From Shigella phage SFP20: a stretch of DNA of 39,499 nucleotides. Location of the stretch: sequence record OQ031076; one strand, given 5' to 3'. The position numbers were made by a program, and so were the translations under genes. Positions 18,400-23,521 of this stretch are shown here, piece by piece; the stretch's first letter is position 1; each line of letters begins with the position of its first letter. The notes under the pieces were generated by a model. It did no database searches. It saw only the letters and a program-made list of their open reading frames with translations, and was not told the origin of the DNA.

Positions 18400-18429
18400 T
18401 TGACAAGATGTACCGACTTAAAGTAGTAT
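18400..18429 (+). promoter_or_regulatory. sigma70-type early promoter (A3-like): TTGACA, 18 bp, TAGTAT
   Basis: Downstream GTACCACATCGAAACGACAGTGAAG is nearly identical to the T7 A3 initial transcribed region (GTACCACATGAAACGACAGTGAG). Confidence 0.7.
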
Positions 18430-18554
18430 GTACCACATCGAAACGACAGTGAAGCCTAACACTGAAACAGGCTAGCGAGGCGACGACAGCCGAGCGAATG
18501 CTCTTTAACAATCTGGATAACTCTTAATGTGCGCCGATAATGCTAGTAAGCGAT

Positions 18555-18649: not shown

Positions 18650-19102
18650 ATGATTTACACTAACGAACCAGCCAACGTCTTCTATGTGCTCGTGTCTGCC
18701 GCTCGTGCTAACCTGTCTGATATGGCTAACATGGCCCGTCAGTTAGACCTTAAGGCACTGCTGCAAGCCGAACCTGAATACTACGGTGTGCTTGAATGCA
18801 CTGGGCTTACAGGCTGCTACCGCGAGGAGGGACAAGAGGTCGCCACTGAAGAGAGAACCTACCGTGTGCGCTGTGAGTCCAAGGCTCAAGCTATCAACGT
18901 TGCACGACTGGCCTGCAATGACTTTGAGCAAGACTGCGTGATGGTCTACAAGTCTCAGACTCACACGGCTGGACTGATGTTCTGCAAAGGCTTGGACGGG
19001 TTCAAGACCACACGTCTGAACGGGTCATTCCAGCAAGTCGATGCACCAAAGGGCGAATGCTTCACGAAAGACGCTGAAGGGCGCTTCTGGGAGGTGGTGT
19101 AA
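18650..19102 (+). CDS. 0.3: S-adenosylmethionine lyase/hydrolase (T3-type gene 0.3 anti-restriction protein)
   Basis: 150 aa; N-terminus MIYTNEPANVFYVLVSA... and motifs TGCYRE, VYKSQTHTAGL closely match my recollection of the T3 SAMase (about 152 aa); first early gene after the sigma70 promoters. Confidence 0.8.
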   Translation: MIYTNEPANVFYVLVSAARANLSDMANMARQLDLKALLQAEPEYYGVLECTGLTGCYREEGQEVATEERTYRVRCESKAQAINVARLACNDFEQDCVMVYKSQTHTAGLMFCKGLDGFKTTRLNGSFQQVDAPKGECFTKDAEGRFWEVV

Positions 19103-19103
19103 G

Positions 19104-19307
19104 ATGGTTAACTCATACCCTAATCACATCAAGCCATGGATAACGGTTGATATTGAGACCGTGGGCGACTCCAAGTTTGTGACCATACGGTCGAGCATAC
19201 ACGTTAACAAGGAGTTCAAACTTCCTCATAGCTATAGCCTGAGCTGGGGAGATTGGGAGATTCTACGGGATTCCGCTTTCCTCAAGTACGCCGGGAGGTT
19301 CTACTGA
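19104..19307 (+). CDS. hypothetical early protein
   Basis: 67 aa from the ATG at 19104 with RBS GGGAGGTGG; the track ORF 19041..19307 extends upstream into gene 0.3. Confidence 0.5.
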   Translation: MVNSYPNHIKPWITVDIETVGDSKFVTIRSSIHVNKEFKLPHSYSLSWGDWEILRDSAFLKYAGRFY

Positions 19308-19440: not shown

Positions 19441-19475
19441 CTACAGGTCATCCATGCGGGTGGCCTGACTGATTG
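19441..19475 (+). promoter_or_regulatory. putative RNase III stem-loop (R0.5 position)
   Basis: CAGGTCATCCATGCGGGTGGCCTGACTGATTG shares the AGGTCAT ... GTGGCCT ... TGATT pattern with the other candidate sites. Confidence 0.4.
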
Positions 19476-19505
19476 TCACTTAACCACAAGAAGGAAACAC
19501 ACGTA

Positions 19506-20240
19506 ATGAACGCACACGATAAAGTAATCATGAATAACCTGATGTCCCAGCTTCACGCTATCATCTGTCAGGCTGACTACAAGGTGGAGTCGCTGGGGTC
19601 TGGCATAGCTGCGCAAGACCGCTGGGGAGCCTTTGAGATACTGGCGAGGGAACATGGTTACAGGCTGTTAGGACTGGGACACTTCGCCGCTGCCTTTGAG
19701 CATGAGGACCTGCCGGGATATGCAATCAAGGTGGGCTTCAAGAAGGATGACTCAGGCGCTGCATATGCGGCCTTCTGCCGAGAGAATGAGGGTCTGGCTG
19801 GACTACCAATCATCCATCTGGTCAAGCGCTTCAGCAGGGCGTACATGGTGGCTATGGACAAGTACCGCTCACTGAATGACATCGGCGGGGGCTACTGCCG
19901 GGACGGTGAGACCTACGAGCAACGAGTCTTGAACGTGTCGTGGCGTGTAGTGAACGCAATAATAGACCAATGCGAGATGCCAGCCGCTGCACTGACTTGG
20001 TGGCTGGACAATGAGGCCCGACAAGAGTTTGCACACGTCGAGACCCAGTACATCAAGCAACTGGCGACCACAGCGCGTAAGATTCACACGTTCTTCTACG
20101 GTCTGGCGAGCTTCGACACTCACCGGGCAAACGTGATGGTCGATAACAACGGGCGCTTGATAATCACGGACCCGGTGTCTTGGACCTCAGCAGATCATCA
20201 AGACGACATGGCGAACAAGCTGAACGCAATAGCTGAATAG
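19506..20240 (+). CDS. 0.7: serine/threonine protein kinase (gene 0.7), kinase domain only
   Basis: Motifs shared with T7 gp0.7: GHFAAAFEH, IKVGFKKDDSGAAYAAFCR, ASFDTH, ITDPVS. 244 aa from the ATG at 19506 vs about 359 aa in T7; the basic C-terminal region is absent. Confidence 0.8.
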   Translation: MNAHDKVIMNNLMSQLHAIICQADYKVESLGSGIAAQDRWGAFEILAREHGYRLLGLGHFAAAFEHEDLPGYAIKVGFKKDDSGAAYAAFCRENEGLAGLPIIHLVKRFSRAYMVAMDKYRSLNDIGGGYCRDGETYEQRVLNVSWRVVNAIIDQCEMPAAALTWWLDNEARQEFAHVETQYIKQLATTARKIHTFFYGLASFDTHRANVMVDNNGRLIITDPVSWTSADHQDDMANKLNAIAE

Positions 20241-20309
20241 TGATAGACGAGAGGTCATCGAACGATAGGTGGCCTCAAAGATTATTACTTCAAACGATAG
20301 GTGAGAACT

Positions 20310-20507
20310 ATGATACCAATAGCACTGATAGTCATCGGCTATGGGCTGATACTCTGGGTCATCCTCCGGGACATCCAGAAGGCACGTAAAGTCTACAAAT
20401 TCAACTATGTGTCGCTCGGTCGCTGGACTGTGCGTCAACCAAACGGGCGCTTTATGCGTAACTTAGCGAATGTCTGGGACATCGCAACCTTAGGGAGCAA
20501 GCTATGA
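20310..20507 (+). CDS. hypothetical small membrane protein
   Basis: 65 aa with hydrophobic N-terminus (IPIALIVIGYGLILWVIL); ATG at 20310 within the track ORF 20301..20507. Confidence 0.5.
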   Translation: MIPIALIVIGYGLILWVILRDIQKARKVYKFNYVSLGRWTVRQPNGRFMRNLANVWDIATLGSKL

Positions 20508-20758
20508 GCTACAAACACAAGACCTCGCGTTACACCGTTCGTCAACAACAGGAGCGCGACCGGGTACTACAGGCAAGACTCCGGGCTGAGGGCCACAAGG
20601 CCGAGCTGATGTGTCTGGCATACGGTGGACGACCACGCACTGAAGATGGTAAACTTCTGGTCTCAGGCTGGAGGGCGATAGACCAGCGGTCAGCCATCCG
20701 TCACACGACTAAAGGCGACTTCAGTCACCTCCACGCTAACCCTTTGATATGCAAGTGA
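20504..20758 (+). CDS. hypothetical early protein
   Basis: 84 aa ORF with ATGA overlap with the upstream ORF; basic N-terminus. Confidence 0.45.
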   Translation: MSYKHKTSRYTVRQQQERDRVLQARLRAEGHKAELMCLAYGGRPRTEDGKLLVSGWRAIDQRSAIRHTTKGDFSHLHANPLICK

Positions 20759-20762
20759 TTTG

Positions 20763-20785
20763 AATATACCCTCACTAGAGGACTC
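20763..20785 (+). promoter_or_regulatory. variant phage-promoter-like element (CCCTCACTAGAGG) upstream of gene 1
   Basis: AATATACCCTCACTAGAGGACTC: one mismatch (TAGA for TATA) to the family consensus; followed by the GACTCAAGG motif. Confidence 0.4.
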
Positions 20786-20854: not shown

Positions 20855-23521
20855 ATGAGCGTCATTCAGCTTGAGAAGCACGACTTCTCGGACATCTCCA
20901 ACGCTATCGAGCCGTTTAACATTCTGGCTGACCACTACGGGCAGGACCTCGCAGTCAAACAGCTTCAGCTTGAGCATGAGGCATACACTGAAGGCGAGCG
21001 TCGTTTCATCAAGAATCTTGAGCGTCAGGCTGAGCGCGGGGAGCTGGCTGATAATCAGGTCGCAAGACCACTGATGCAAACTCTGGTCCCTAAACTGGCG
21101 CAAGCCGTCAAGGAGTGGCACGAGACCCAAGGGTCAACCCGTGGTAAACCTCAGGTCGCCTTCCTGAAGCTGAGCACTGAGTCGAAACCTCGTGCGCTAC
21201 TGGTCCAGCCTGAGTCGGTGGCGGTCATCGTCCTGAAGATTGCGCTCTCCAAGCTGGTCAAGCCTGAAGGCGTACCGATTACACCGATGGCCTCCGCGAT
21301 TGGTCGCACACTTGAGGATGAAATCCGCTTCGGTCGCATCCGTGACCAAGAGCAGGAGCACTTCAAGAAGACCATAGCCGAGAACCTGAAGAAACGCGCT
21401 GGCGTGGCCTACAAGAAAGCCTACATGCAAGCGGTCGAAGCCTCCATGCTGGACCAGAAGCAACTGGCTGATGCGTGGGGAACATGGTCGCCTGATGAGG
21501 CTGTACATGTTGGCATCAAGATGCTGGAGCTTCTCATCCAGTCCACACAACTGGTCGAACTGAAGCGCCACAACGCCGGGAACGCAGCGTCAGACGTCGA
21601 GATGGTCCACTTGTCGGACTTCTGGGCCAAGAAGATGGCACAGCGTGGCTACTCACTGGCAGGCATCGCCCCGGTTTACCAGCCTTGTGTCGTGCCTCCA
21701 CGTCCTTGGAACTCGGTGGTCGGTGGCGGGTACTGGGCTAAAGGTCGCAGACCTCTCCCGCTGATGCGCTTAGGGTCGAAGGCCGCTATCGCTCGCTACG
21801 AGGAAGTTTACATGCCTGAAGTCTACGAGGCAGTGAACATCATTCAGCAGACTCCTTGGAAGGTGAACAAGAAGGTTCTGGACGTAGTGAACATGGTCGA
21901 GAAGCTGAACAATACGCCTATCGCTGACATCCCACAGATGGACCCGATGAAACCTGAGGACTACAACGGGGAGACCGAGGAGGAGCTGAAGGCGTGGAAG
22001 AAAGCAGCCGCTGGAATCTATCGCCGCGAGAAGGCCCGACAGTCCCGCCGTTTGTCCCTGAGCTTCATCGTCGGACAGGCGAACAAGTTCTCTCAGTTCA
22101 AGGCCATCTGGTTCCCGTACAACATGGACTGGCGCGGTCGAGTCTACGCGGTCCCGATGTTCAACCCACAGGGCAACGACATGCAAAAGGGTCTACTGAC
22201 TCTGGCAGTCGGCAAGCCAATCGGTGCGGACGGATTCAAGTGGCTTAAGGTCCACGGTGCGAACTGTGCGGGTGTCGATAAAGTCACCTTTGAGGAGCGC
22301 ATCAAGTGGGTGGAAGACAACCATGACAACATTCTCGCAGCCGCGAAGTCTCCGATGGACAGCATCGACTGGTGGGGTCAGTTAGACTCTCCGTTCTGCT
22401 TCCTCGCCTTCTGCTTCGAGTATGCTGGAGTCATGCACCACGGGCTGAGCTACTCCTGCTCTCTGCCTATCGCGTTCGATGGGTCATGCTCTGGGATTCA
22501 GCACTTCAGCGCAATGCTTCGGGACCACGTTGGTGGACATGCGGTCAACCTGACGCCAAGCGGGAAGGTCCAAGACATCTACCGCATCGTGTCTGACGAA
22601 GTGGAGGAGCGACTCAAGGAGCTGCTGGTCAACGGTAGCGACAACGAAGTCAAGACCTTCGAGGACAAGAAGACTGGCGAGATTACTGAACGTCTCATCC
22701 TCGGGACCCGTGAGCTGGCCCGGCAGTGGCTGACCTACGGAATGTCACGCTCGGTCACTAAACGCTCTGTCATGACTCTGGCCTACGGGTCGAAGGAATA
22801 CGGGTTCGCGGACCAAGTGTTCGAGGACACCGTGATGCCAGCGATTGATGCAGGCAAGGGGGCGATGTTCACAGACCCGAGCCAAGCGTCTCGCTTCATG
22901 GCTAAGATGATTTGGGATGCAGTGAGCGTGACTGTGGTAGCTGCGGTGGACGCGATGAAGTGGCTGCAAGGCGCGGCTAAGCTGCTGGCTGCTGAGGTCA
23001 AGGACAAGAAGACCAAAGAGGTCCTGAAGCCGTGCCTCCCGGTTCACTGGGTCACGCCTGATGGCTTCCCGGTCTGGCAGGAGTACCGCAAGAAGGACAC
23101 CACACGTCTGGACCTGATGTTCCTAGGGACTTTCCGTCTGCAACCCACAGTCAACAAAGGGGCGAGCAAGGAGCTGGACAAGCACAAGCAGGAGTCAGGC
23201 ATCAGCCCGAACTTCGTCCACTCACAGGATGGCAGTCACCTGAGGAAGACTGTAGTCCACACTCACCGCAAGTATGGAGTCATGAGCTTTGCGGTCATTC
23301 ATGATAGCTTCGGGACCATCCCGGCAGACGCTGAGTTCCTGTTCAAGGGCGTCCGCGAGACTATGGTCGAGACCTACCGCGACAACGATGTGCTGCAAGA
23401 CTTCTACGAGCAGTTCGCGGACCAGCTTCATGAGACCCAGCGCGATAAGCTGCCTGAGTTACCGAAGCGTGGTAAACTGAACATTGAAGACATTCTGTCA
23501 TCTGACTTTGCATTCGCCTAA
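20855..23521 (+). CDS. 1: single-subunit DNA-dependent RNA polymerase (gene 1)
   Basis: 888 aa; extensive identity to T7/T3 RNAP (LADHYG, GERRF, RFGRIRD, LVELKRHNAGNA, QPCVVPP.PW, IWFPYNMDWRGRVYAVPMFNPQGNDM.KGLLTLA, DSPFCFLAFCFEYAG, FDGSCSGIQHFSAMLRD, RSVTKRSVMTLAYGSKE, HKQESGI.PNFVHSQDGSHLR, IHDSFGT, C-terminal SDFAFA). Confidence 0.98.
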   Translation: MSVIQLEKHDFSDISNAIEPFNILADHYGQDLAVKQLQLEHEAYTEGERRFIKNLERQAERGELADNQVARPLMQTLVPKLAQAVKEWHETQGSTRGKPQVAFLKLSTESKPRALLVQPESVAVIVLKIALSKLVKPEGVPITPMASAIGRTLEDEIRFGRIRDQEQEHFKKTIAENLKKRAGVAYKKAYMQAVEASMLDQKQLADAWGTWSPDEAVHVGIKMLELLIQSTQLVELKRHNAGNAASDVEMVHLSDFWAKKMAQRGYSLAGIAPVYQPCVVPPRPWNSVVGGGYWAKGRRPLPLMRLGSKAAIARYEEVYMPEVYEAVNIIQQTPWKVNKKVLDVVNMVEKLNNTPIADIPQMDPMKPEDYNGETEEELKAWKKAAAGIYRREKARQSRRLSLSFIVGQANKFSQFKAIWFPYNMDWRGRVYAVPMFNPQGNDMQKGLLTLAVGKPIGADGFKWLKVHGANCAGVDKVTFEERIKWVEDNHDNILAAAKSPMDSIDWWGQLDSPFCFLAFCFEYAGVMHHGLSYSCSLPIAFDGSCSGIQHFSAMLRDHVGGHAVNLTPSGKVQDIYRIVSDEVEERLKELLVNGSDNEVKTFEDKKTGEITERLILGTRELARQWLTYGMSRSVTKRSVMTLAYGSKEYGFADQVFEDTVMPAIDAGKGAMFTDPSQASRFMAKMIWDAVSVTVVAAVDAMKWLQGAAKLLAAEVKDKKTKEVLKPCLPVHWVTPDGFPVWQEYRKKDTTRLDLMFLGTFRLQPTVNKGASKELDKHKQESGISPNFVHSQDGSHLRKTVVHTHRKYGVMSFAVIHDSFGTIPADAEFLFKGVRETMVETYRDNDVLQDFYEQFADQLHETQRDKLPELPKRGKLNIEDILSSDFAFA

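What the first reader, a model, noticed from the sequence alone, without database searches (positions are those of the whole stretch)
20301..20758. Two unassigned small ORFs between the kinase and the RNA polymerase
A 65-aa predicted membrane protein (hydrophobic N-terminus, basic C-terminus) and an overlapping 84-aa basic protein occupy the slot just upstream of gene 1. Early-region small proteins of T7-like phages are typical host-takeover or anti-defence factors, and these have no counterpart I can recognise.
Basis: inference. Interest (0 to 1): 0.5.

Follow-up and report, generated by a model that had tools for sequence, protein, structure and literature searches.

The report
Two conserved early phage genes
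The two small ORFs are real, conserved early genes of a T7-like (K1F-type) Shigella phage that are already in the databases as hypothetical proteins, and although each has named relatives in other phages, nobody knows what either protein does.

Summary
The window is Shigella phage SFP20, a Kayfunavirus (K1F-like, T7 supergroup). Both ORFs exist as described:
- ORF1: 65 aa, 20310-20507, with a hydrophobic N-terminus and a basic tail.
- ORF2: 84 aa, 20504-20758, basic, overlapping ORF1 by 4 nt (ATGA).

Both are genuine genes. dN/dS is about 0.18-0.19 in frame and about 1 or higher in the control frames. Each has a Shine-Dalgarno sequence, and the coupled stop/start junction is conserved in relatives. 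GenBank already lists them as hypothetical proteins SFP20_018 and SFP20_019.

- ORF1 is the homologue of T3 gene 0.6, K1F gene 0.6 and BA14 gp0.6A (phrog_2385; hhalign probability 96.7%). This family occurs in 616 phage records.
- ORF2 is the "gp0.38" family of EcoDS1, CR8 and Dev2 (phrog_7066). It occurs in about every phage of the Kayfunavirus/Caroctavirus clade, and in every relative examined it is the last gene before the RNA polymerase gene.

Neither ORF is detectably related to T7 gp0.6A (the MreB inhibitor), T3 gp0.65 or the C-terminal shut-off domain of T7 gp0.7. Neither matches Pfam, NCBIfam, the PDB or any outside fold.

The function is still inferred. ORF1 is probably a membrane-anchored binder and ORF2 a soluble binder of host targets early in infection. 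Interest is low to moderate: uncharacterised members of known families.

The parts
20234..20292 (+). Conserved RNA hairpin upstream of ORF1, a putative RNase III-type processing site
   Evidence: MFE -23.4 kcal/mol, z = -3.1 against shuffles. A 46-53 nt stretch is at least 89% identical in 13 relatives including K1F, while the flanks diverge. One-sided changes keep the pairing, but there are no compensatory pairs. T3 has an annotated RNase III site, R0.5, before its gene 0.6. The RNase III function is inferred, not tested.
20299..20304 (+). Shine-Dalgarno sequence of ORF1 (AGGTGA)
   Evidence: Duplex with the 16S 3' end has dG -6.7 kcal/mol for the ATG at 20310, against +0.3 for the GTG at 20301.
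20310..20507 (+). ORF1 = gene 0.6 homologue (T3/K1F type; GenBank SFP20_018): a 65-aa single-pass membrane protein
   Evidence: phrog_2385, E 2.3e-29. hhalign against T3 gp0.6 gives 96.7%. dN/dS is 0.18. It is 100% identical to WBF70035.1.
20310..20369 (+). ORF1 residues 1-20: transmembrane anchor, variable in sequence
   Evidence: Kyte-Doolittle mean 2.62 over residues 1-19. AF2 predicts a helix at 2-28 with pLDDT 86-92. dN/dS is 0.32 for residues 6-23, against 0.11 for the tail.
20370..20504 (+). ORF1 residues 21-65: strongly conserved basic tail, predicted cytoplasmic, with the signature R-W/F-T-V-R-x-x-N-G-R-F
   Evidence: The tail carries 10 K/R against 2 D/E. Invariant residues are R38 T40 V41 R42 N45 R47 F48 N51 A59, across Kayfunavirus, T3, BA14, KpV289 and Bas103. 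AF2 predicts a beta-hairpin at 32-43 and a helix at 46-64. The topology is inferred from the positive-inside rule.
20492..20497 (+). Shine-Dalgarno sequence of ORF2 (AGGGAG), lying inside the 3' end of ORF1
   Evidence: Duplex dG -8.1 kcal/mol. GGGAG is conserved in all relatives.
20504..20507 (+). ATGA stop/start overlap, implying translational coupling of ORF1 and ORF2
   Evidence: Seen directly in the sequence. 21 of 22 relatives have the equivalent TAATG junction.
20504..20758 (+). ORF2 = gp0.38-family protein (GenBank SFP20_019): 84 aa, basic, soluble
   Evidence: phrog_7066, E 1.6e-40. It is identical to WBF70036.1. Foldseek on BFVD finds only family members, including EcoDS1 Gp0.38. dN/dS is 0.19.
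20705..20731 (+). ORF2 residues 68-76: family signature T-T-x-G-D-F-x-H-L
   Evidence: T68 G71 D72 F73 H75 L76 are invariant across the 50%-identity representatives of the whole family. They lie in the low-confidence part of the AF2 model, where pLDDT is 48-55.
20763..20785 (+). Phage-RNA-polymerase promoter-like site immediately upstream of gene 1
   Evidence: The core CCCTCACTAGAGGAC lies at 20769-20783. It is one of 11 such sites in the window, against 0.49 expected. It is conserved in all 22 aligned relatives and changes together with the RNA polymerase type. CR8 annotates a predicted promoter at the same place.
19473..20240 (+). Upstream neighbour: gp0.7-type protein kinase, kinase domain only
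   Evidence: phrog_15752, E 1.7e-106. It is 33% identical to T7 gp0.7 over the kinase part only. Relatives annotate a 244-aa CDS, which corresponds to the ATG at 19506.
20855..23521 (+). Downstream neighbour: gene 1, the single-subunit RNA polymerase
   Evidence: An 888-aa ORF, about 50% identical to T7 RNA polymerase.

Best explanation
Shown:
- The interval holds two genuine, translationally coupled early (class I) genes of the Kayfunavirus Shigella phage SFP20.
- ORF1 is the homologue of T3/K1F gene 0.6.
- ORF2 is the gp0.38 family. Every relative examined has it as the last gene before the RNA polymerase gene.

Predicted from sequence and models:
- ORF1 is a 65-aa single-pass inner-membrane protein. 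Its N-terminal helix serves only as an anchor. Its highly conserved, very basic 45-residue tail (a beta-hairpin plus an amphipathic helix) is held at the cytoplasmic face of the membrane.
- ORF2 is a soluble basic protein. Its N-terminal half is a helical hairpin. Its C-terminal half is conserved but poorly ordered and carries the motif T-T-x-G-D-F-x-H-L.

Inferred:
- Both are made from host-RNA-polymerase transcripts in the first minutes of infection, probably from an RNase III-processed mRNA.
- Both act without enzymatic activity, by binding host components. ORF1 would act at the membrane. ORF2 would act in the cytoplasm through a C-terminal segment that folds on binding.
- That would make them host-takeover or counter-defence accessory factors. 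Their targets are unknown.
For: Real genes:
- dN/dS is 0.18 and 0.19 in frame, against 0.97-4.3 out of frame.
- Both have strong Shine-Dalgarno sequences, and the coupled junction is conserved.

Identity:
- ORF1 and T3 gp0.6, BA14 gp0.6A, KpV289 orf05 and Bas103_0010 all fall in phrog_2385, E 1e-28 to 1e-30.
- hhalign of ORF1 against T3 gp0.6 gives 96.7%. K1F annotates its copy as gene 0.6.
- ORF2 falls in phrog_7066. It is named 0.38 in CR8, Dev2 and EcoDS1.

Distribution:
- RNA polymerases at least 60% identical occur in 222 phage records. ORF2 occurs in 223, and ORF1 at 60% identity or more in 214.
- The order ORF1-ORF2-gene 1 holds even in the most divergent family members. The kinase is present in only about 10 of 23 relatives.

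Early expression:
- Sigma-70-like promoters lie at about 18400-18540. No terminator-like site lies on the + strand before gene 1.

Anchor plus functional tail:
- dN/dS is 0.32 for the transmembrane part and 0.11 for the tail.
- The charges follow the positive-inside rule, and the AF2 model agrees.

Binder rather than enzyme:
- The proteins are only 65 and 84 aa.
- Neither matches Pfam, NCBIfam or PDB sequences.
- Neither model matches any fold outside its own family.
- The most conserved part of ORF2 is the least ordered in the model.
Against: - No experiment and no homology to any characterised protein supports a host target. The 'binder of host components' step is inference from size, position and analogy with other T7-group early proteins.
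- The models are of moderate quality (pLDDT 72 and 78, pTM 0.51 and 0.38), and the alignments are shallow (Neff about 1.6).
- ORF1 is dispensable in nature. It is absent in L018, internally deleted in L009, and fused to a gp0.4-like N-terminus without its transmembrane helix in P0113.
- The strong positive charge of both proteins fits nucleic-acid binding equally well.
Confidence: 0.6

Rival explanations
1. ORF1 is a functional analogue of T7 gp0.6 or gp0.4. It would be a cytoskeleton or division inhibitor (MreB, FtsZ or FtsA) that acts from the membrane to stop the infected cell growing or dividing.
For: - ORF1 occupies the early-region slot and carries the name 'gene 0.6'.
- T7 Gp0.6 inhibits MreB and Gp0.4 inhibits FtsZ (PMC5624674).
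- In the loci examined, the T3-type and T7-type 0.6 genes never co-occur.
- Both proteins have a short motif, T-V-x-x-P-x-G, followed by a basic helix.
- MreB, FtsA and FtsZ act at the inner face of the membrane, where the ORF1 tail is predicted to sit.
Against: - Profile comparisons find no homology: probability 0.3% and 0.75%, and the two fall in different PHROGs.
- T7 gp0.6A has no transmembrane helix.
- The co-occurrence sample contains only one T7-type genome.
Confidence: 0.12
2. ORF1 anchors ORF2 at the membrane. The two would form one stoichiometric complex that works as a unit.
For: - The stop/start coupling is conserved in nearly all relatives.
- ORF1 and ORF2 are adjacent in all family members, including the most divergent.
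- T3-type phages also place a small basic ORF (0.65) overlapping the end of gene 0.6.
Against: - ORF2 occurs without ORF1 (L018) and with ORF1 variants that lack the hairpin or the transmembrane helix (L009, P0113).
- A homing-endonuclease gene separates the pair in three relatives.
- ORF1 homologues in BA14, KpV289 and Bas103 have no such partner.
- Both proteins are strongly basic, which does not favour a simple electrostatic pairing.
Confidence: 0.2
3. ORF2 is a nucleic-acid-binding regulator of phage gene expression. It would act on the gene 1 promoter or leader, or on the phage RNA polymerase itself.
For: - In every relative examined, ORF2 lies immediately upstream of the conserved phage promoter and gene 1.
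- It has pI 10.3 and an Arg-rich N-terminal helix modelled with pLDDT 83-90.
- It is about universal in its clade.
Against: - Its fold resembles no known DNA- or RNA-binding domain.
- ORF2 sequence type does not follow RNA polymerase or promoter type. The window's ORF2 is closest to L004 and L005, whose polymerase is only about 79% identical and whose promoter differs.
- The Arg-rich helix is the more variable half of the protein.
Confidence: 0.15
4. ORF1 is a superinfection-exclusion protein, or another membrane-level blocker of DNA entry or of a membrane-associated abortive-infection system.
For: - It is a small, early-expressed, single-pass inner-membrane protein. From general knowledge, this architecture resembles T4 Imm and HK97 gp15.
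- It is widespread across Studiervirinae genera that share an ejection machinery.
Against: - The conserved part is the predicted cytoplasmic tail. The membrane and periplasmic portion is only 2-3 residues outside and its sequence is variable.
- No homology to known exclusion proteins was found.
Confidence: 0.1
5. ORF1 plus ORF2 replace the missing C-terminal host-shut-off domain of the T7-type gp0.7 kinase.
For: - The kinase here is only 255 aa, against 359 in T7, and lacks the C-terminal third.
- The two ORFs follow it directly.
Against: - hhalign against T7 gp0.7 gives probability 0.2-0.3%.
- More than half of the relatives keep ORF1 and ORF2 but have no kinase at all.
Confidence: 0.03
6. 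The ORFs are chance open frames and are not expressed.
For: They are short and have no characterised homologue.
Against: - Selection is frame-specific and purifying.
- Hundreds of homologues keep the same length and junction.
- Both have strong Shine-Dalgarno sequences.
Confidence: 0.01

Closest known systems
T3 gene 0.6 protein (NP_523298) = K1F gene 0.6 (AAZ72967), EcoDS1 gp0.6, BA14 gp0.6A; phrog_2385, function unknown
   Same: - ORF1 is 65 aa, within the family's 64-66 aa range.
- It has the same N-terminal transmembrane helix followed by an R-D motif.
- It has the same tail signature, R-W/F-T-V-R-x-x-N-G-R-F.
- It sits in the early region between gene 0.3 and gene 1.
- Support: same PHROG and hhalign 96.7%.
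   Different: - It is only about 38% identical to T3 gp0.6, with a 5-residue gap after the anchor and a different C-terminal end.
- It lies downstream of the kinase, not upstream.
- It is followed by gp0.38 rather than gp0.65.
EcoDS1 Gp0.38, CR8 0.38, Dev2 gp0.38; phrog_7066, function unknown
   Same: - ORF2 has the same conserved core and the T-T-x-G-D-F-x-H-L signature.
- It has the same position, coupled to gene 0.6 and about 100 nt upstream of gene 1.
   Different: The SFP20 copy is the short form, 84 aa. It lacks the optional 25-aa or roughly 50-aa N-terminal modules of the 108- and 130-139-aa forms.
T7 gp0.6A/0.6B (phrog_8393; Gp0.6 inhibits MreB, PMC5624674)
   Same: - A small early protein with the same gene number and position.
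- A second basic reading frame overlaps its end.
- A short T-V-x-x-P-x-G motif is followed by a basic helix.
   Different: - No detectable homology: hhalign 0.3-0.75% for ORF1 and 0.6% for ORF2 against the 0.6B tail.
- T7 gp0.6A has no membrane anchor.
- Its family has a different distribution, which includes phi92-like and Aeromonas phages.
T3 gene 0.65 protein (phrog_10380)
   Same: - A small, very basic protein (pI 11.4).
- Its gene overlaps the 3' end of gene 0.6.
- It shares an L-x-x-M/L-A-Y-G motif.
   Different: hhalign probability is 0.8%. It has no T-T-x-G-D-F-x-H-L tail, and it is followed by the kinase rather than by gene 1.
T7 gp0.7 C-terminal host-transcription shut-off domain
   Same: It is basic, encoded early, and sits next to the kinase domain.
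   Different: No homology is detectable. ORF1 and ORF2 persist in relatives that lack the kinase.

Membership tests
T3/K1F gene 0.6 family (phrog_2385) | Significant match to the family profile | tested here: met
   ORF1 against phrog_2385: E 2.3e-29 over residues 1-64.
T3/K1F gene 0.6 family (phrog_2385) | The named founders fall in the same profile and align to ORF1 | tested here: met
   T3 gp0.6 gives E 9.1e-30 and BA14 gp0.6A gives 5.7e-29 against phrog_2385. hhalign of A1 against T3 gp0.6 gives probability 96.7%, E 4.6e-10. K1F's annotated 'gene 0.6' product is 87% identical to ORF1 by tblastn.
T3/K1F gene 0.6 family (phrog_2385) | Architecture: about 65 aa, an N-terminal hydrophobic helix, an R-D motif, and the basic tail motif R-W/F-T-V-R-x-x-N-G-R-F | tested here: met
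   Alignment A6 has Y11 I14 D21 R38 T40 V41 R42 N45 R47 F48 N51 A59 invariant. Hydropathy and charge agree.
T3/K1F gene 0.6 family (phrog_2385) | Early-region location between gene 0.3 and gene 1 | tested here: met
   The window order is SAM lyase, DUF7300, kinase, ORF1, ORF2, gene 1. The position relative to the kinase is inverted compared with T3.
gp0.38 family (phrog_7066) | Significant match to the family profile and to named members | tested here: met
   ORF2 against phrog_7066: E 1.6e-40. Foldseek on BFVD hits EcoDS1 Gp0.38 at E 2.3e-9 with 82% identity, and CR8 at 2.1e-5.
gp0.38 family (phrog_7066) | Conserved C-terminal signature T-T-x-G-D-F-x-H-L | tested here: met
   T68 G71 D72 F73 H75 L76 are invariant in A7.
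gp0.38 family (phrog_7066) | Position: coupled to the preceding gene 0.6 and about 100 nt upstream of gene 1 | tested here: met
T7 gp0.6A (MreB inhibitor; phrog_8393) | Sequence or profile homology to T7 gp0.6A | tested here: not met
   hhalign gives 0.3% and, profile against profile, 0.75%. T7 gp0.6A falls in phrog_8393, not phrog_2385.
T7 gp0.6A (MreB inhibitor; phrog_8393) | Binding to or inhibition of MreB | not testable with these tools
   This needs expression and morphology assays or interaction assays.
T3 gp0.65 (phrog_10380) | Profile homology | tested here: not met
   hhalign of A2 against A3 gives probability 0.8%, over a 16-column L-x-x-x-A-Y-G stretch only.
T7 gp0.7 C-terminal shut-off domain | Profile homology to residues about 240-359 of T7 gp0.7 | tested here: not met
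   hhalign gives 0.2% for ORF2 and 0.3% for ORF1.
Known anti-defence proteins | Match to a curated anti-defence profile (for example dbAPIS or AntiDefenseFinder) | not testable with these tools
   No such library is available here. PADLOC, which covers defence rather than anti-defence, gave nothing. The sequences are absent from the supplements of two accessory-gene screens.

The most novel reading that the evidence does not exclude
ORF2 (gp0.38) could be a new kind of host-takeover or counter-defence factor. It has no detectable relative among the 1.8 billion cluster representatives searched outside about a dozen clusters, almost all small proteins like itself. It is universal in the Kayfunavirus/Caroctavirus clade. 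It would dock onto a conserved enterobacterial target through its disordered T-T-x-G-D-F-x-H-L tail. The widespread gene 0.6 membrane protein (ORF1) would be a second, independent inhibitor acting at the inner face of the membrane. Neither mechanism would have a described precedent.
Probability: 0.35. Interest if true: 0.55.

Novelty: already known. Interest (0 to 1): 0.25.

Why it matters
Early small proteins of T7-group phages have repeatedly turned out to be precise inhibitors of host machines. Known targets include RNA polymerase, FtsZ, MreB, restriction enzymes, dGTPase and RecBCD.

The gene 0.6 family (ORF1) occurs in 616 phage records, about half of the 1,189 records whose RNA polymerase matched the window's. 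The gp0.38 family (ORF2) occurs in every K1F-like phage. Several of these phages are being developed for therapy against E. coli K1, Shigella, Salmonella Typhi and Enterobacter.

Neither family has an assigned function. Finding their targets would fill two of the remaining blanks in the best-studied phage group.

As a sequence finding, however, this adds nothing new. The genes are deposited and sit in named families.

Tried and rejected
1. Pfam, NCBIfam and PADLOC scans of both ORFs and of longer homologues gave nothing above noise.
2. PDB sequence-profile searches gave nothing significant.
3. Fold searches found nothing outside the family.
   - The ORF1 model against PDB by Foldseek gave E of 9 or more.
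   - The ORF2 model against BFVD returned only family members.
   - The afdb50 library was unavailable.
4. An exhaustive profile search of ORF2 against 1.8 billion cluster representatives found only 12 clusters. One was a weak repeat hit in a 952-aa bacterial protein, judged spurious.
5. ORF2, or ORF1, as the detached C-terminal shut-off domain of T7 gp0.7 was rejected.
6. ORF2 as a homologue of T3 gp0.65 was rejected at 0.8%. ORF2 as a homologue of the T7 0.6B tail was rejected at 0.6%.
7. ORF1 as a homologue of T7 gp0.6A was rejected at 0.3% and 0.75%. This held despite a shared T-V-x-x-P-x-G motif, and after I built a 7-member gp0.6A family alignment.
8. ORF1 and ORF2 as paralogues of each other was rejected.
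9. An ORF1-ORF2 frameshift fusion like T7 0.6A/0.6B was not pursued. The ORF2 frame is open for 14-47 codons upstream in relatives, which is not beyond chance, and I saw no slippery site.
10. Literature searches found no functional study. I searched for Kayfunavirus early genes, gene 0.6 of T3, gp0.38/gp0.65, the PHROG ids and EcoDS1. The K1F genome paper (PMC1317022) is not held.
11. The Rfam scan of the region gave nothing.
12. The gene 1 leader does not fold better than shuffles (z = -0.56).
Full report
**What the window is.** ORF1 is 100% identical to 'hypothetical protein SFP20_018 [Shigella phage SFP20]', found on a 39,499-nt contig, which is the length of the window. ORF2 is identical to SFP20_019, WBF70036.1. 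The nearest records are Kayfunavirus genomes, that is K1F-like Studiervirinae. Shigella phage SFP21B is 89% identical over this region. The deposited genome is circularly permuted, so the early region lies in the middle of the window.

The local gene order is as follows:
- SAM lyase, 18650-19102
- a DUF7300 protein
- gp0.7-type kinase, 19473-20240
- ORF1
- ORF2
- gene 1, the RNA polymerase, 20855-23521

**Checking the observation.** Both ORFs are present as described.
- The mechanical ORF1 begins at GTG 20301.
- ORF1 residues 1-19 are strongly hydrophobic (Kyte-Doolittle 2.62). Residues 20-65 have 10 K/R against 2 D/E, and pI is 11.0.
- ORF2 runs 20504-20758, is 84 aa with pI 10.3, and has an AGGGAG Shine-Dalgarno sequence inside the end of ORF1.
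- The overlap between the two is just ATGA.

**Are they genes?** I compared 22 related loci, fetched.
- Nei-Gojobori dN/dS is 0.18 for ORF1 and 0.19 for ORF2, against 0.11 for the kinase.
- Within ORF1, dN/dS is 0.11 for the tail (residues 24-65) and 0.32 for the membrane segment.
- The same nucleotides read in the two other frames give ratios of 0.97 to 4.3.
- The stop/start junction is conserved as TAATG in 21 of 22 relatives and ATGA here, with the GGGAG Shine-Dalgarno sequence upstream.

These are real, translationally coupled genes.

**Who are they?**

ORF1 matches phrog_2385 at E 2.3e-29. So do T3 'gene 0.6 protein', BA14 gp0.6A, KpV289 orf05 and Bas103_0010.
- hhalign of the ORF1 alignment against T3 gp0.6 gives probability 96.7%, E 4.6e-10.
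- The K1F reference genome annotates its copy as gene 0.6.
- The joint alignment shows a variable transmembrane helix, an R-D motif and an invariant tail signature, R-W/F-T-V-R-x-x-N-G-R-F.
- tblastn finds the family in 616 phage records. 214 hits are at 60% identity or more (the Kayfunavirus clade). 402 are at 36-47% in Przondovirus, Berlinvirus, Teetrevirus and others.

ORF2 matches phrog_7066 at E 1.6e-40.
- Its relatives are called 0.38 in CR8 and Dev2, and Gp0.38 in EcoDS1.
- It is a narrow family. It occurs in 223 phage records, in 132 clusters at 90% identity, and in only 12 clusters among 1.8 billion 50%-identity representatives.
- RNA polymerases at least 60% identical to the window's occur in 222 records. 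ORF2 is therefore about universal in its clade, and ORF1 nearly so.

By contrast, the kinase is present in only about 10 of 23 related loci.

**Anatomy and context.** The order ORF1-ORF2-gene 1 holds in all relatives examined, including the most divergent ORF2 homologues.
- ORF2 has a conserved core and optional N-terminal modules, giving lengths of 83-86, 108 and 130-139 aa.
- Across the whole family the invariant residues form the tail motif T-T-x-G-D-F-x-H-L.
- AF2 models the N-terminal half of ORF2 as a confident helical hairpin (pLDDT 83-90). The most conserved C-terminal part scores only 48-55. I read this as a segment that orders only on binding a partner, which is inference.
- ORF1 is modelled as a helix at 2-28, a beta-hairpin at 32-43 and a helix at 46-64, with pLDDT 78. 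The positive-inside rule puts the tail in the cytoplasm, which is also inference.

Natural variants show that ORF1 can be lost or truncated while ORF2 stays:
- L018 lacks ORF1.
- L009 has an internally deleted copy.
- P0113 is a fusion of a gp0.4-like N-terminus to the last 30 residues of ORF1, still followed by a coupled ORF2.
- In three relatives, a homing-endonuclease gene sits between the pair.

**Expression signals.**
- Sigma-70-like promoters lie upstream at about 18400-18540. No terminator-like site occurs on the + strand before gene 1. This is consistent with class I transcription by the host polymerase.
- A hairpin at 20234-20292 folds better than shuffles (z = -3.1). It is nearly invariant in 13 relatives whose flanks differ.
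- T3 has an annotated RNase III site, R0.5, before its own gene 0.6. I take the hairpin as a probable processing site, but there is no covariation and no sequence similarity to the T3 or T7 sites.
- Between ORF2 and gene 1 lies a phage-promoter-like sequence. It is one of 11 in the genome against 0.49 expected. It is conserved in all 22 aligned relatives and switches from CCCTCACTA to CTATCACTA together with the polymerase type.

**Function.** Every route to a characterised relative failed.
- There are no Pfam, NCBIfam, PADLOC or PDB sequence matches.
- No fold matches outside the family.
- No paper found here addresses these proteins.
- The sequences are absent from the supplements of two phage accessory-gene screens.

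Specific leads were tested and rejected:

| Lead | hhalign probability |
|---|---|
| ORF2 / ORF1 vs T7 gp0.7 C-terminal shut-off domain | 0.2% / 0.3% |
| ORF2 vs T3 gp0.65 | 0.8% |
| ORF2 vs T7 0.6B tail | 0.6% |
| ORF1 vs T7 gp0.6A | 0.3% and 0.75% |

T7 Gp0.6 is the MreB inhibitor (PMC5624674). The name 'gene 0.6' therefore does not carry the MreB function across to ORF1.

The best-supported account is structural and positional:
- ORF1 is a membrane-anchored protein that presents a conserved basic tail at the inner face of the membrane.
- ORF2 is a soluble basic protein with a conserved docking-type tail.
- Both are made first in infection, and both are too small and featureless to be enzymes.
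- They most probably act as binders of host components.

The rivals cannot be excluded with these tools and are scored individually. They are a cytoskeleton or division inhibitor, an ORF1-ORF2 complex, a regulator of gene 1, and superinfection exclusion.

**Verdict.** The ORFs are real, conserved early genes. They are not without counterparts, and the proposed role remains untested. They are already deposited and belong to named, uncharacterised families, so the finding is ordinary as a sequence observation. Its residual interest is that two very widespread T7-group early proteins still have no known target.

Noticed in passing
window 20763-20785 (core 20769-20783): A phage-RNA-polymerase promoter-like site sits directly upstream of the polymerase gene itself, which implies positive feedback on gene 1. 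It is one of 11 such sites in the window, against 0.49 expected. It is conserved in all 22 aligned relatives. It switches from CCCTCACTA to CTATCACTA together with the polymerase type. CR8 annotates a predicted promoter at the same place.
   Followed up: partly
window 20234-20292: A conserved RNA hairpin lies between the kinase and ORF1 (z = -3.1). It is nearly invariant in 13 relatives including K1F, while the flanks diverge. One-sided substitutions keep the pairing, but there are no compensatory pairs. It is likely an RNase III-type processing site, like T3 R0.5.
   Followed up: partly
window 19473-20240; loci L001-L028: The gp0.7-type kinase here is the kinase domain only (244-255 aa, against 359 in T7) and is optional among relatives. 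Across the related loci scored for both (window, L001-L024 except T7, and K1F), none carries both the kinase and a gp0.4-like gene (PF26807, Phage_T7_GP04); K1F's record lists no kinase. They look like alternative early modules.
   Followed up: partly
L004 2080-2500, L006, L008 (Escherichia phage IMM-002 and relatives): A gene of about 420 nt, annotated endonuclease VII (a homing-endonuclease-like insert), lies between ORF1 and ORF2. It takes over the coupled TAATG start.
   Followed up: no
L042 1220-1420 (P0113): This is a natural chimera. A gp0.4-like N-terminus is fused in frame to the last 30 residues of ORF1, so the transmembrane helix is lost. It is still followed by a coupled ORF2 and gene 1, and it was found on three contigs.
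   Followed up: partly
L028 2262-2468 (K1F reference DQ111067): The K1F record annotates gene 0.6 but leaves the ORF2 homologue unannotated. Only a 65-aa GTG-initiated remnant of the frame is open there. This is either a 5' frameshift or a sequencing error.
   Followed up: no
ORF2 homologues (alignment A2): ORF2 comes in three length classes through optional N-terminal modules. One is a 25-aa module, NKSYGINLVH...ATGY. The other is a module of about 50 aa, F-T-D-K-N-G-V-E-W-K-Y-x-G-T-D-S-R-G-R-N-Y-W. Both are of unknown meaning.
   Followed up: no
window 19041-19307: The mechanical ORF for the DUF7300 protein overlaps the 3' end of the SAM lyase gene by about 60 nt. Relatives annotate a later start just after the SAM lyase stop.
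   Followed up: no
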